A DNA stretch of 64,000 nt from Escherichia coli (GTDB lineage: Bacteria > Pseudomonadota > Gammaproteobacteria > Enterobacterales > Enterobacteriaceae): assembly GCF_003790525.1 (NCBI RefSeq), contig NZ_CP033636.1, one strand, 5' to 3'. Of the stretch, positions 24,001-30,000 are shown piece after piece. Positions within the stretch are counted from its first letter, which is position 1; each line of letters begins with the position of its first letter. The position numbers are program-made.

Positions 24001-27000
24001 AATGTATATCAACATCAATAGAGGCAGTGGAGCGGCCTAAATCATTAACCTTAAGAACAGCCGTCTCAACAGTATCAGTAATTTTAGTTATAGCGTCCCG
24101 ACCGGGCACTGGTCTTCTGTATTCAGTAACTGTTTTTTGCTCGTCAATGTAAATAAAGTCTTTATTGGCATTAACGCTAAAAAGACCCGGCACTGAGTCA
24201 GGGATTTTATAGGAATCAAAGATTAAACCAATCCACCTTAGCTTAAGAAGGTTATAGAATTCTAGTTTCCCTATCCCATTTCTAAAGATGTTTGATATTT
24301 CGTTTTCCGAATAGATACCCGGAATGAAGTAGTGAACGACACGCTCATCATCATAGGGCTCGACGTAACCACGTTGAACTAGGGATTCTACCAATACCGT
24401 CTTACCAGCCTCTCCCTGAGGGAAGTTATATTTATGTAATTCGAAATCATTGAGAACAAAATCAAGGAATGCGTTCTCGTTAAGGTATACCTCACCATTT
24501 ACGATAATGATGTGCATAGGCTTAGCATTGTAATTGTTGATATTGATACTGGTAAAGTTGTGCTTGATGGTACTAATGGCCCTTGCTGCTGCATCATTAG
24601 AACGCAGACCCATGATAGGGTCACGTAAAACATTAAGGTCTGTACCAGTAGAATAGAAATCAGCGGTCCTCACGCATTTAGACAAAAAGTCATTCCCATC
24701 AGTATAAACGTTTAGGGCGGTGATCATTTTTGAATAAACACGTTCTTTATTTACCCGATCCAAAAATGCAAGACATACCGGGTTTAGGATTCGCTCAAGG
24801 AAAACGCTGGACCAGATATTATGTTGATTATGAATACGCTTTCGCCAGTGGATTTCGTATTCAACCACGTCATTTTCACGTGCCCAGTCAAGAAGACTTT
24901 GTGAGCTTGGCGTCCAAATGATCGGACTAGCTAAATTCAGGCTTACAATATCGAGATCGTAAACCTTTCCGGCATCATGGACTAAACCACAGATAAACGC
25001 AGCATAGAGATATACTTTTCTACGGACTACTTCTTCATCTTGATATCCGATTGGTCTCAGTTCTGAGTGATGCGCATTTTTTAAAGAGAGTATGGCCACT
25101 TCCAGGCTGTGAGAAAGTAACCCACCAATACCATTATGATGATGATTTTCGGAAGCTGGCAAAAGATGTATCCAGCGAACATATTCAACCAAGGGCTTTA
25201 ATACTAAATTAGTAAATGTATATGCATCGTCCCTGATGTCGCTATCGCTGATAGCTAACATCATTGAAATTGAGTGCAGCTTTTCCCGATACAGAGACAG
25301 GATTGACTGTTCATTAAATGTCTGTATGCCCGTCGGACGAGTTGGATACTCGATGAATTTCAGGACTTCTGGATTTGGATGATCAGGAACAGTGTACTTC
25401 TGATCTCCTAGAATCTGCGCAAAAGGAGAGAGGCTTGATATATCCTCAATCATTACAGAGGTTGCATCATTCTCCTGAGATGAGAATATCCCCAAAATCC
25501 GTTTAATACATAAATACAGCGCCCTGAAATTCATCATCATACCTTATCGACGTTTGCCTGACAGTTCGGCTGCAATGTATGCCTGCACACTTTTATATTG
25601 CATTACTTTGGTGATGAACTCTGCTGGACTGTATGGCCCATCCTTACGGCGAGAAACATTCAGAGTCTTTTTCACATTCTCAACATATAAATTAATACTC
25701 TTTATAATGTTGTGAGACATAACCGGATAGTCGCTTACAGCCAGTAAACCCAATGAGTTGTACTCATACATTGTGTTCATGAGCTGGTTCATCTCGAAGA
25801 TGTACTTGTAAAACCTCATGGTGTTGTGGTTATTGAAGTTGAGTTGTACTGGTTCAAAACTGAAAGGTACAAACTGAGTTGATGACATGAATGAGTCATT
25901 CTTGTCGAACTCAATTGACTTAATATAAGCAACAAGATTTTCTTTCATCTTATTGTTTTCTTCATGCAGCTCGTTGAACCAATCCTGAATAGCCTGAACA
26001 AGGTCAGGATGTTTAACTGCATCAACCGTTTTAAAGAGAGAGGAAATAGCGATACTCACATCATCAAAACCTCTGATGACTGCTCCATTTCTGGCAGTTA
26101 AAAACCGGTTAAAATCTGGGGTGCCGGGGTTAATAATAACTTTGGCCATACCCTGGTGCTCTGGTCTACGTTGAGTAGAAGTTTGAGCGTTTACGCCTTG
26201 CTTTTTATTTGAACCTTTTACCATTACATCTTTTGGTTCAATGTTAATACGCTCATTGTCCGTGATAATTGCGTCGGTCATTGTGCCACCTTAGTTTTTG
26301 AGTATTGACGGATTTTTCGTCCAAGTTCGATATATGCTGAATGATAGAGCTCAAGCATTTCTCTGTAAGGCTCCAGCAATGCTTCCGTTTCAGAAATCAT
26401 TTCGTATTCCCAGCTGGCATGGTTTACAAAACAGTTCTTAGAATATTTTCCACTTTTCATTGGTTGCACCCGTTTTGACATGTGACTAGGCGCTCTTGTT
26501 TTATAAGGGCTGAACTGATGCCAAGTGATCGTTACTTTTCTGGCATTACCAATTAGCTCAACTTTTGGTGCGTAAGAACCCAGATACTCCCTCTTTGGAA
26601 CTTTGCTATGTCGGGTAAGGTTAATCTCTTGGTGGTTTCGTTCCTTCCACTTGATCCAGTATTTTGTAATGAGATCTTCAGCCTCAACACGCAAACCTTC
26701 AATCTGAGCACGTAAATTTTTACGTGTTAGCTCTATAGAACTTATAAGATTCGAATTACTCATGACGCCTCCTGATGTGAAATTACTATACCGGAGGAAA
26801 TTTCCGTTTTTTTTCACGAACAGAAGATTTTTGAATGCTCTTTGATGAGGGAATTGAACAGATGTAATGCACTCGCTGTTTCCCCCATTCGGGAGGGGCC
26901 TTCAGAAACAGTAACAGCGAGTTTAGCCTCACTTCCATCGCTACCCTCTAAAGTTACTTTTGAGGGAATGACCATTGTGGATTATTGCTTTTGATAATGT

Positions 27001-30000
27001 GCATTGCTCTATTAAAGTTATACATATATCTAGTGCCACTTTTCCAAAAAAAATGACCCTATGGAACTTTGTCCATAGTGACACTTTTATAAAAAGTGAC
27101 CCTATGACGACATTACATAGGGTCACTTTTCAAACATAAGTGACCCTATGTGAGGTATTCATAGGGTCACTTTTCTTTGTTTAGTGATCCTATGTAAGCA
27201 TGAGGTTGATGAAAAGTAAAAATGTCAGTTTATGACGGTCAGTGAAAGACGTCGTTATTCTAATCCAACGTTGGGAGGGGCTGGATTTAGGTTTTTTTTT
27301 AATCGCTTCACATTTCGTTAGCATGCGAAGAAATTTTGATAAAATTCTGGTCAGTTTGGTTAAAAAGTGTTACAAGTAAGCGGTGTGGTTGAAGGGATAG
27401 ATTTAAGGCTTATTCAAGCCTTAAGAAAATACTAAAAGTTACTTTTCACCCTACCGAACACCTAACAAAAAATCCATGTTGAAGATTTGAACAATTGTAA
27501 TGGCGCAAGGACAATCAGCACATGTCAGAATCTGATAATTTAACTCGTAGCTTACTCGGTAAACTTTTCCGCACTGAGATTTCGCTTATTCGTAGTTACC
27601 GTGCATTTTTAATGTTATTGCCTGTGCATGGATCTTCTGCATATCAAACTGGGACTCCTCTTCTCCAGCGTCGCCTATTTGGGAAAGGATTTAGTACAGC
27701 CGCTGATTTAGCTTTTGAAGTGGAAACACGTCCAGGTAGTTTTTTGGTTCCGCGTACACTCGGAAAGGAAATTACATGGGAGAGGTTTTTTTCTGCGGTC
27801 TTGGACGGTGATTCCAATGTAATTCGTGAATATGATACAAATGATATTGACTATGGTATTTACGATGCCGGTGAAAAAGTGACTTTTCTGAATGGTACAG
27901 TGGATATCTATAATCCCAAGAAGATTCATGAGTTGCGTTCTAAATGTGTTGATATACAGAATGACTACTTTATGCAGGTGTTCTTTATCTCAATGCTCGC
28001 ACCAGAGTTTGTAAGTGTTTTCTTTGGTTTAAAACCAACTACAGCTGATGCTATTAAAGACATTGGTTATTCATCGTTAAAAACAATTAACGATGTCGTT
28101 CTTTTCCCACGTACAATTGCTTTCTCACAAGGGCATATTGAAGAGAGTGTTTCACTTAAAACGAAAGTTTTTGCCTGGGCTTATGAATTGTCTGCTGACA
28201 TCCGGTTAGGAAAAGTTAGTGATGATTTGATGGAACTATTACGTTATGACACTATGTTCACCAGTCACCGTCAGGATGTGTTCAACACTTTAACAAATAA
28301 AGTTATGTTAAAGGATTATTAATATGGCAAAGGTCGATCAAACAAAAGCTAATGCTCTATTGCGAGCAGCAAGGACTATGTCGCTTGGGGCAAATAAAAA
28401 TACAATACGAATTTTGTACGGTAATCATGTTGCTGAAAATATCGATTTTGAGCCTGGTGCAAAAACAAAACTCAAAAAAGGTATCCGGGGCTGGAGCAAA
28501 CGCACAGATAACCGCCGAGCTTTTTCTGCTGTTATTGATGTCGCAGTTAACTATTTTGGTTTTGATCCAATAAATCCGGAAGCGAGTTTTCGGCAAATTG
28601 ACTTCAACCGAATAATGAGTGTCCTTCATAATCTGGGATACTTTGTATGCGCACCGGAAGTTAATAAAATAATAGAAATCCTTACTTCTATGAAAGAAAT
28701 TGAAGAACTAGGTGCCTGCGAAAAATGTAAACGCCCATACATTGTGCCAGTGACAAATGATGCTTATTGTCCACGTTGCAGATTATCTTCAACTGCTTCA
28801 GCCATAGAGAGGTATTCTCAAGAAGAATTAGATTAAATTTAAAAAAGATATCGCGAAACTTGCCTTGTCTGAATCTAAATATTGACTTAAGTCAAATTCT
28901 GTTGTTTGCTTTACAATCAAATATTAGTTACAACTTAAATATTAACTCTTGACAAGTAAAGATATAATTTGATTTTTCTTTATACAGTCTTTCTTCGTTC
29001 CAAAAAATGTTCACCTTTTTTTCTGTTGAAAACGTAAAACTACTTAGGTTCTCTAAAACCTTCTATGCATGACGACTTCTTAATCGCTTTCAATTAATAT
29101 ATTTTATATTCTTGCCTAAGTTCGCTTCTTTGATCCTTAGCTATTCCTTCTTTGAAATATAGAAACAGCGTTACTGGTGATGATTTTTTTCAGCTCTTAA
29201 TACACCTGTTTTCAAAGCAATATTTGCTTTTAGATATTCGATAAAACCATGTTTTTGTTACACCGGATTTTTCACAATGTGCAAGATGGATGATCTTTCC
29301 ATCACCGAGACTATCTTCTTAGTCAGCACTCCTTTTCCGTCCTTTTCAACATAAAAACGACCATGCTATACGAGCTCTAACCTTTTTTTTGTATGCCATC
29401 ATAACCGCATCAGAAAAGGAGAACGGTCTATGACTCGTATTGCATTAGCGCCTTCAAAGATGGTTTTGCTTATGTCTTTGGTAATTACTGGTGCCCACGC
29501 CAGCCCTGAGCAACCCCTAATAAAAGATACGCCCTTTGTATCAGGCCAGGCTTATAAGAAGGGTTTCTTCTGGTATGACGATCCTGCTAAAAAAAGCGAA
29601 GCTGAAGAAGAAAAGGTTTTGCCACCAACCGGTGCTGCTAGCTCGCCTTCAAAAGAGGAAAAGGTAGATTTAAATTCAAAATGGCTAAAAGAGAATATGC
29701 CTCGACTGTTAACGCAGGCAATGGATAACCCTACCGCAGAAAATCTATCACGTTATTACACGGCGCAAAGGTTAATGCTGGATATCAGTACGCGTTTTTC
29801 TGACAAATCAAAAGATTATTTTCTTAAAAACCCGATGATGTCTGAAAAACGCAGGCAACCAGTGGAAAAGGTGGCACTGGATGCTCACCGCACTGTTGTT
29901 GAAAAAAATCAGCAAACGGTAATGAAAGATATCTTTACTAAGTCAGGTTTATTTTTCTTTTTCCAGAGTACTTGCCAGTTTTGCCACGAAGAGAGCCAAA

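What the first reader, a model, noticed from the sequence alone, without database searches (positions are those of the whole stretch)
26818..27521. Candidate oriT: two perfect inverted repeats built from a unit that shares a half-site with the backbone palindrome
**What the sequence shows.**
- The 700-bp gap between the divergent relaxase operon and the regulator/trh genes contains AAAAGTGACCCTATG-9nt-CATAGGGTCACTTTT (27092-27130).
- It also contains AAGTGACCCTATG-9nt-CATAGGGTCACTT (27138-27172).
- At least three degenerate copies of the same unit lie at about 27053, 27074 and 27181.
- There is an additional hairpin TTAAGGCTT-attc-AAGCCTTAA (about 27402-27424).
- The first 9 nt of the unit (AAAAGTGAC) equal the left arm, the centre and the first two right-arm bases of the dispersed AAAAGT-N-ACTTTT palindrome.
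- The 23-bp extended palindrome (26944-26966) lies 125 bp to the left.

**Established knowledge.** oriT regions lie next to relaxase operons and carry inverted repeats for relaxase and accessory-protein binding.

**Inference.** This is the oriT or relaxosome assembly site. The same or a related protein may read both the oriT unit and the dispersed palindrome. I could not locate a nic site.
Basis: partly seen in the sequence, partly recalled or inferred. Interest (0 to 1): 0.55.

Follow-up and report, generated by a model that had tools for sequence, protein, structure and literature searches.

The report
IncHI plasmid transfer-origin repeat array
The inverted repeats are real and lie in the already-known transfer-origin region of a common IncHI2 resistance plasmid, where they most likely form the docking platform for the helper protein MobI/TraH rather than the DNA nicking site itself.

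Summary
The window is an IncHI2 (R478-type) backbone, identical to hundreds of sequenced plasmids. The finding lies in the gap between mobI/traH (MobI family, first gene of the MOBH relaxase operon) and trhR. This is the Tra1 oriT region of IncHI plasmids.

The repeats are confirmed. There are eight alternating 15-bp half-sites (27029-27194), and the unit occurs nowhere else in the window.

Comparison with seven further lineages (MobI 86% to 32% identical) changes the reading:
Its half-sites are always 18-20 bp apart and the modules repeat every 42-45 bp.
- There are five lineage-specific unit variants, all of the form AAAAGT...ATG.
- The array stays with mobI even where trhR, trhY and the relaxase are absent.

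The oriT entry that oriTfinder uses maps to about 27254/27286-27537, right of the array. I therefore read the array as a binding platform for TraH/MobI multimers that is accessory to the core oriT (confidence 0.55). No nic site could be assigned.

The 27403-27424 hairpin is IncHI2-specific. Overall this is a known locus with modestly new fine structure.

The parts
22388..25540 (-). traI, MOBH-family relaxase (TraI_2 domain)
   Evidence: Pfam PF07514, E=1e-32. Annotated as a MobH family relaxase in the identical plasmid pSTM6-275.
25544..26281 (-). 245-aa gene of the H operon (R0121-like), function unknown
   Evidence: No Pfam or NCBIfam family. Syntenic and 22% identical in the Klebsiella lineage.
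26278..26763 (-). mobI/traH, a MobI-family relaxosome accessory protein and the proposed binder of the array
   Evidence: Pfam MobI PF19456 scores 79.2 bits against a cut-off of 26.6. RefSeq annotates it as MobI(A/C). The AlphaFold model (pLDDT 86) shows helix 3-48, a beta-hairpin at 64-83 and helix 119-160. This is the topology described for IncC MobI.
26944..26966 (.). mobI-side palindrome (core AAAGTTACTTT at 26950-26960), about 190 nt upstream of the mobI ATG
   Evidence: The core is conserved in IncHI1, Photorhabdus, L010, L013, L014, L018 and Klebsiella, lying 190-240 nt upstream of mobI.
27017..27028 (-). Junction motif TATATGTATAAC (read on the mobI strand), just after the last, degenerate half-site. 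Candidate -10 of the mobI promoter, or a nic-region candidate.
   Evidence: A motif of the form (T/A)GTAT(A/T)A follows the last dyad in all eight loci compared, about 230-270 nt before the mobI ATG, although the units differ.
27029..27194 (.). Array of eight alternating 15-bp half-sites forming four dyads: 27029-27063, 27074-27106, 27116-27150 and 27160-27194.
   Evidence: Conserved from IncHI2 to IncHI1 while the spacers diverge. Phasing table. Single-strand folding z-scores are -7.0 and -8.0.
27286..27537 (.). Stretch matching the oriT entry used by oriTfinder for IncHI plasmids. The full entry probably starts near 27254.
   Evidence: Coordinates reported for pGS32-1 and p1575-1 were mapped by offset from the relaxase gene. 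The hit is 284 bp in an IncHI1B plasmid. A simulated BLAST shows that the short hits are limited by the ends of the entry.
27297..27385 (+). Nearly invariant block. It holds a promoter-like site (TTAGCA 27318-27323, 16 nt, TG-extended TAAAAT 27340-27345), probably the trhR promoter, and AAAAGTGTTACAAGTA at 27363-27378.
   Evidence: The 16-mer is identical in Leclercia plasmid L018 and close in L010.
27403..27424 (.). Hairpin TTAAGGCTT-ATTC-AAGCCTTAA, specific to IncHI2
   Evidence: The arms are not complementary in the IncHI1-type sequences.
27434..27446 (.). trhR-side palindrome AAAAGTTACTTTT, 76 nt before the trhR ATG
   Evidence: Invariant in IncHI1, IncHI2 and Photorhabdus, and present in L010.
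27522..28836 (+). trhR (27522-28322) and trhY (28324-28836), the R operon encoding activators of the tra operons
   Evidence: Annotated as trhR in relatives. Roles are described in PMC7366339. Homologues are 29% and 35% identical in Klebsiella plasmids.

Best explanation
The mobI(traH)-trhR gap is the Tra1 oriT region of this IncHI2 plasmid.

Within a dyad the half-sites are two helical turns apart, and the dyads repeat every four turns.

Most likely each dyad binds a dimer of the MobI-family protein TraH, whose gene starts 265 bp away. The bound dimers would then multimerise into a phased nucleoprotein platform. That platform would recruit the MOBH relaxase TraI to a nic site in neighbouring DNA. 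It probably also feeds back on the divergent mobI and trhR promoters.

The core oriT lies right of the array, at about 27254-27521, so the array is an accessory or enhancer part of oriT.

Shown here: the repeats, their conservation, phasing and lineage-specific units, their linkage to mobI, and MobI family membership. Inferred: TraH binding, relaxase recruitment, autoregulation, and where nic lies.
For: - The array is real and unique to this locus.
- Half-sites are conserved between IncHI2 and IncHI1 while the spacers diverge. One IncHI1B plasmid lacks exactly one 44-bp period.
- Five lineage-specific unit variants occupy the same position next to mobI, with identical geometry: 18-20 bp within a dyad and 42-46 bp between dyads, with single 56-57 bp steps in the Klebsiella-type and L013 loci.
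- In Leclercia plasmids the array, palindrome and mobI persist without trhR, trhY or a relaxase nearby.
- The gene product is a MobI-family protein, and its model has the topology reported for IncC MobI.
- IncC MobI forms dimers and multimers, recruits TraI through the relaxase C-terminal domain, and gives a single ChIP-exo peak at oriT-mobI.
- R27 TraH is cited as the MobI-like factor, and the R27 oriT as lying next to its gene.
- The unit is absent from the trhF upstream region. A lacZ fusion to the R27 F-operon promoter responds to TrhR/TrhY.
Against: - There are no binding data for any IncHI TraH.
- The oriT entry used by oriTfinder excludes the array. If that fragment is mobilisable on its own, the array is dispensable for basal transfer, and TraH must also act within 27254-27521.
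- All neighbouring proteins diverge about as much as MobI: TrhR 29%, TrhY 35% and the 245-aa protein 22% identity. Co-variation therefore does not single out MobI.
- The primary R27 mapping paper could not be read.
Confidence: 0.55

Rival explanations
1. The array is a transcriptional operator or upstream activating site for the divergent H (mobI) and R (trhR) operons. It would be read by TrhR/TrhY or another regulator and would not be part of the relaxosome.
For: - It lies between divergent genes and outside the database oriT.
- TrhR/TrhY activate the tra operons.
- TrhR and TrhY diverge in step with the units.
- TrhY carries a conserved CxxC...CxxC motif.
Against: - The unit is absent from the trhF upstream region and from the rest of the 64 kb. 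The R27 F-operon promoter responds to TrhR/TrhY.
- The array persists with mobI where no trhR/trhY-like ORF is nearby.
- Arrays of repeats upstream of mobI also occur in MobI systems that lack trhR/trhY neighbours, in Shewanella, Aeromonas and Pseudoalteromonas.
Confidence: 0.2
2. The dyads are hairpins or cruciforms recognised by the relaxase TraI itself. In this reading nic lies at an edge of the array, for example in the conserved TATGTATAA junction at 27017-27028.
For: - The one biochemically characterised MOBH relaxase (gonococcal island TraI) needs a 32-nt hairpin immediately 3' of nic. The dyads here are 33-36 nt.
- Both strands fold far better than shuffled controls.
- A junction motif next to the last dyad is shared by all lineages, although the units differ.
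Against: - The database oriT excludes the array and this junction.
- Three to five tandem copies are not expected for a relaxase hairpin.
- The GGI enzyme belongs to MOBH2, works without a MobI, and cares about the structure of the hairpin rather than its sequence. Here the arm sequence itself is conserved.
- The junction motif could equally be a -10 element for mobI.
Confidence: 0.15
3. The array is a replication-iteron or partition-centromere repeat set unrelated to transfer.
For: Phased, repeated protein-binding sites are also typical of iterons and centromeres.
Against: - There is no Rep, ParA, ParM or ParB-type gene among the adjacent genes.
- The repeats alternate in orientation rather than being direct.
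- The array is always tied to mobI and the MOBH relaxase operon across lineages.
Confidence: 0.03

Closest known systems
oriT of IncHI1 plasmid R27 (Tra1 region, next to traH; Lawley et al. 2002) and its homologue in R478
   Same: Same gene order (traG-traI-orf-traH | gap | trhR-trhY-trhF-trhH). The gap is 99% identical to R478 and aligns end to end with R27-type plasmids, array included.
   Different: Nothing differs at the level of the locus. The oriT fragment in the database covers only the roughly 284 bp next to trhR, so the array lies outside it. I could not read the primary paper to see whether the repeats were described there.
oriT-mobI modules of IncA/IncC plasmids, SXT/R391 elements and MGIVchHai6-type islands (MOBH12)
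   Same: oriT lies directly upstream of a MobI-family gene in an AT-rich region with multiple inverted and direct repeats that overlaps the mobI promoters. Repeat copy number varies between relatives. MobI determines oriT specificity and recruits TraI.
   Different: There is no detectable DNA similarity. In IncC, oriT and mobI lie about 50 kb from the MOBH relaxase; here they are adjacent. The IncHI relaxase C-terminal domain differs. The array here sits 265-430 bp from mobI rather than abutting it, and it is a regular four-dyad lattice rather than overlapping 14-bp direct repeats.
F-plasmid TraM binding sites (sbmA-C) at oriT. Basis: my own knowledge; one search shows only the title of a cited reference on cooperative TraM binding at oriT.
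   Same: An accessory protein encoded next to oriT binds cooperatively as oligomers to several phased sites outside the nic core. It enhances transfer and autoregulates its own promoter.
   Different: The protein fold and relaxase family (MOBF) are unrelated. This is an analogy of mechanism only, and nothing about it was tested here.
oriT of the gonococcal genetic island (MOBH2 TraI)
   Same: The relaxase belongs to the same superfamily (TraI_2 HD domain). It requires a ~32-nt hairpin next to nic, similar in size to the dyads here.
   Different: That system has a single hairpin, no MobI and a different C-terminal domain. Its nic has been mapped, whereas no MOBH1 nic has been mapped.

Membership tests
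MOBH1 oriT-mobI module | A MobI-family gene directly adjoins the non-coding region | tested here: met
   Pfam PF19456 scores 79.2 bits against a cut-off of 26.6. RefSeq names it MobI(A/C). A profile search recovers the family.
MOBH1 oriT-mobI module | A MOBH relaxase (TraI_2) and a coupling protein are encoded by the element | tested here: met
   TraI_2 E=1e-32; TrwB/TraD-type coupling protein. MOB-suite types the plasmid as MOBH, MPF_F.
MOBH1 oriT-mobI module | Repeated, often palindromic, lineage-specific elements lie upstream of mobI | tested here: met
   Found in all 11 lineages examined, with different sequences.
MOBH1 oriT-mobI module | The fragment is mobilised in cis by the cognate conjugative element | not testable with these tools
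   This needs mating assays. Papers say it was done for R27, but the primary paper is not held.
MOBH1 oriT-mobI module | MobI binds the region | not testable with these tools
   Shown only for IncC MobI, by ChIP-exo.
MOBH1 oriT-mobI module | A nic site cleaved by TraI | not testable with these tools
   The IncA/C study reports that primer-extension and interrupted-mating attempts to find nic failed, and I found no mapped nic for any MOBH1 element. Only candidate positions can be named.
IncHI oriT as held in oriTDB/oriTfinder | Sequence homology to the database entry | tested here: met
   Met for 27286-27537, using reported hits in two IncHI2 plasmids mapped by offset. I could not run oriTfinder itself.
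   The hits end at 27286. A simulated BLAST shows that homology continues through the array, so the ends of the entry are what limit the hit. The entry is about 284 bp.
Iteron origin or partition centromere | An adjacent rep or par gene, and direct repeats | tested here: not met
   No such genes are adjacent. The repeats alternate in orientation.

The most novel reading that the evidence does not exclude
The AAAAGT core shared by every oriT unit variant and by the dispersed AAAAGT-N-ACTTTT palindrome is read by one protein, either TraH/MobI itself or a conserved partner. The palindrome has 15 copies in the backbone part of this window and is unchanged across deeply diverged lineages. If so, the relaxosome accessory factor of IncHI-type plasmids would also occupy a plasmid-wide set of sites. 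That would link oriT processing to global control or organisation of the backbone, something not seen for IncC MobI.
Probability: 0.15. Interest if true: 0.6.

Novelty: already known. Interest (0 to 1): 0.3.

Why it matters
IncHI2 plasmids are major carriers of mcr and other resistance genes, and their transfer starts in this region. The location of oriT is not new.

What the comparison adds is a concrete, testable map:
- which repeat register is conserved;
- that the units change with the lineage while one palindrome does not;
- that the array travels with mobI;
- that the database oriT and the array are separate neighbours.

This gives defined fragments and oligonucleotides for mapping the nic site. 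I found no mapped nic for any MOBH1 element, and the IncA/C study reports failed attempts. The same map gives defined targets for testing what TraH binds.

Tried and rejected
- The primary papers on R27, SXT and Tra2 (PMC134963, PMC105367, PMC2493277, PMC145343) are not held. The extent of the cloned R27 oriT was therefore inferred indirectly.
- The IncC plasmid R55 accession is not in the collection, so no direct DNA comparison with the IncC oriT was made.
- The co-variation argument for MobI was rejected as decisive, because TrhR, TrhY and the 245-aa protein diverge equally.
- The extra 'places in record' for the array query probably reflect the array matching itself in shifted and reverse registers. 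I did not inspect those places, so a second copy elsewhere in those plasmids is not excluded; there is none in this window.
- MAFFT alignment across the deepest lineages is unreliable, so motifs were compared by position instead.
- The 24.7-kb plasmid L020 is only an IncHI1B-like remnant.
- The palindrome as a TrhR/TrhY site remains unresolved. It is absent from the trhF upstream region, and its gene contexts are mixed.
- I could not decide whether the junction motif at 27017-27028 is a -10 element or a nic region.
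Full report
**Identity of the locus.** The 2.4 kb around the finding is 99-100% identical to 957 plasmid records. 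The records examined are IncHI2: pSTM6-275 is typed IncHI2A. The reference plasmid R478, also IncHI2A, is 99% identical over 26700-27600. On the minus strand lie:
- a TraD/TraG-type coupling protein (20304-22388);
- a MOBH relaxase with a TraI_2 domain (22388-25540);
- a 245-aa protein;
- a MobI-family protein (26278-26763; Pfam 79 bits).

On the plus strand lie two family-less proteins annotated as trhR and trhY in relatives, then TraF-like and TraH-like genes. This is the Tra1 region of IncHI plasmids. In R27 the order is R0121, traH ('relaxosome protein', H operon), trhR (R operon), trhF (F operon).

**The observation.**
- The unit AAGTGACCCTATG occurs four times perfectly and once with one mismatch, all within 27051-27172, against 0.04 expected.
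- There are eight half-sites in strictly alternating orientation between 27029 and 27194.
- At two mismatches only three chance-level hits lie elsewhere in the 64 kb.
- The hairpin is at 27403-27424.
- The left palindrome (26944-26966) has one mismatched arm pair.
- The dispersed palindrome is highly non-random: 8 exact copies against 0 expected, and 15 copies of the 11-bp core against 0.09 expected.

**What is conserved.**
- Aligning the gap with R478 and three IncHI1-type plasmids shows conserved half-sites and diverged spacers. One plasmid lacks exactly one 44-bp period.
- The 27403-27424 hairpin is not conserved in IncHI1.
- Both flanking palindromes and a block at about 27297-27385 are nearly invariant. 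The block contains a promoter-like site with a TG-extended -10, suitably placed for trhR.

**Deeper lineages.** Using MobI as a guide I fetched loci whose MobI is 86%, 54%, about 39% and 32% identical to the window protein, plus a Leclercia type. Each has, at the same place between mobI and the trhR-like gene, an alternating array built from a different unit:

| Lineage | Unit |
|---|---|
| IncHI1/IncHI2 | AAAAGTGACCCTATG |
| L010/L011 | AAAAGTAACACTATG |
| Klebsiella type | AAAAGTACTAATG |
| L013 | AAAAGTTTGAGATG |
| L018 (Leclercia) | AAAAGTTAAACATG |

- All variants keep AAAAGT at one end and ATG at the other.
- In every lineage the pair CAT...ACTTTT / AAAAGT...ATG is 18-20 bp centre to centre.
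- The conserved module is therefore the ~35-bp dyad with the T/A tracts at its centre. It repeats every 42-46 bp (single 56-57 bp steps in the Klebsiella-type and L013 loci), with three to five copies.

**Which protein reads the array?**
- TrhR, TrhY and the 245-aa protein diverge as much as MobI, so co-variation is not decisive.
- Two other observations favour MobI.
  - The unit is absent from the trhF upstream region. A reporter fusion to the corresponding R27 F-operon promoter responds to TrhR/TrhY.
  - In Leclercia plasmids the array, a palindrome and mobI persist with no trhR/trhY-like ORF and no relaxase nearby.
- More remote MobI systems without trhR/trhY neighbours (Shewanella, Aeromonas, Pseudoalteromonas) also carry their own repeat sets upstream of mobI.
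- In IncC plasmids MobI self-associates into dimers and multimers and binds the relaxase C-terminal domain. It gives a single ChIP-exo peak over oriT-mobI. The same paper names TraH of R27 as the MobI-like factor of MOBH11 systems.

**Where is the core oriT?**
- Two independent papers report a 252-bp oriTfinder hit in IncHI2 plasmids. By offset from the relaxase gene, both map to window 27286-27537.
- An IncHI1B-type plasmid gave a 284-bp hit.
- When I aligned an R27-type sequence to the window with free flanks, one alignment ran from about 27015 through the whole array into trhR. R27-type and IncHI1B-type sequences aligned end to end.
- The short hits must therefore be limited by the database entry itself. 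That entry is about 284 bp, ends 16 bp inside trhR, and starts near 27254.
- The array (27029-27194) lies outside it.
- I could not read the primary paper. Whether this entry is the minimal mobilisable fragment is unverified, but it is the only experimentally derived delimitation available.
- The entry contains the invariant block, including TTTGGTTAAAAAGTGTTACAAGTAAG, and the trhR-side palindrome. The 16-mer within that block recurs identically as the last half-site of the Leclercia array. It is conserved in L010. In Klebsiella plasmids it is replaced by a solitary copy of their own unit.

**nic.**
- I found no mapped nic for any MOBH1 element. The IncA/C study reports that its attempts to find nic failed.
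- The only characterised MOBH relaxase (gonococcal island, MOBH2) cuts just 5' of a 32-nt hairpin.
- The dyads are of that size and fold strongly as single strands.
- A short motif, (T/A)GTAT(A/T)A, follows the last, degenerate half-site in all lineages.
- That junction (27017-27028) is a candidate nic region, but it could equally be the -10 of the mobI promoter, and it lies outside the database oriT. I assign no nic.

**The palindrome.**
- AAAAGTNACTTTT flanks the array on both sides in every lineage with AAAAGT-type units. One copy always lies 190-240 nt upstream of the mobI ATG.
- It is absent from the three loci whose repeats lack AAAAGT.
- It does not change while the units do.
- In the window about nine of 15 copies fall outside ORFs of at least 100 codons, and none lies beyond 43.3 kb.
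By analogy, the single IncC MobI ChIP-exo peak argues against MobI binding dispersed sites.

**Verdict.** The locus is already known for IncHI plasmids and is routinely annotated by oriTfinder.

Refinements from this work:
- the functional repeat register;
- the lineage-specific units;
- the linkage of the array to mobI;
- the separation of the array from the database oriT core.

My best reading is that the array is a TraH/MobI multimerisation platform that is accessory to the core oriT (0.55). The rivals are a TrhR/TrhY operator (0.2) and relaxase hairpins with nic at the array edge (0.15).

Noticed in passing
window 1066, 9505, 9631, 15457, 20359, 22089, 23527, 26950, 27435, 27876, 30495, 38720, 40813, 41714, 43278: The 11-bp palindrome core AAAGTNACTTT occurs 15 times against 0.09 expected. 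All copies lie in the first 43.3 kb and none in 44-64 kb. About nine fall outside ORFs of at least 100 codons. The same palindrome is unchanged in plasmid lineages whose MobI is only 32-54% identical, and it is absent from Shewanella, Aeromonas and Pseudoalteromonas MobI loci. Its reader is unknown.
   Followed up: partly
L018 1548-2486 (Leclercia plasmid pLEC-5e18, NZ_CP026390.1); similar in 8 further Leclercia/Enterobacter plasmids: An orphan module of five dyads, one palindrome and mobI, with no relaxase or trhR/trhY nearby and an IS3 element upstream. The plasmid is typed non-mobilisable with MPF_T. It could be an oriT-mobI hitchhiker mobilised in trans by an IncHI-like helper, analogous to MGIVchHai6 with IncC plasmids.
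   Followed up: partly
L003 (p53EVA-2) and L012 (Photorhabdus tasmaniensis contig JASNMP010000008.1): These relatives carry three dyads instead of four, differing by exactly one ~44-bp period. Dyad copy number therefore varies naturally, as reported for the 14-bp repeats of the IncC oriT.
   Followed up: partly
L006 2833-2970 and L007 2797-2970 (Klebsiella plasmids): The annotated mobI starts in these RefSeq records add about 46-58 N-terminal residues that align with nothing in other MobI proteins. They also swallow a copy of the palindrome. The true start is probably the internal Met (MNPIITAH...).
   Followed up: partly
window 26764-26817: The mechanical ORF list starts mobI at a GTG (26817, 179 aa). 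RefSeq and the family alignment support the ATG at 26763 (161 aa, MSNSNL...), which makes the non-coding gap 758 bp rather than about 700 bp.
   Followed up: yes
window 28324-28836 (trhY): TrhY ends with a CxxC-N17-CxxC motif. The motif is conserved in the 35%-identical Klebsiella homologue, where the spacer is one residue shorter. This suggests a zinc ribbon. No Pfam or NCBIfam family matches TrhR or TrhY.
   Followed up: no
window 26792-26814: A terminator-like hairpin, CGGAGGAAATTTCCG followed by T8, lies on the plus strand just upstream of the mobI start. The hairpin arms are not conserved in IncHI1, although the T-run is.
   Followed up: no
window 28837-29429 (upstream of trhF): This 590-bp AT-rich gap upstream of trhF contains neither the oriT unit nor the palindrome. 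A reporter fusion to the R27 F-operon promoter responds to TrhR/TrhY. It does hold a short palindrome, TTGACTTAAGTCAA, near 28884-28897.
   Followed up: no
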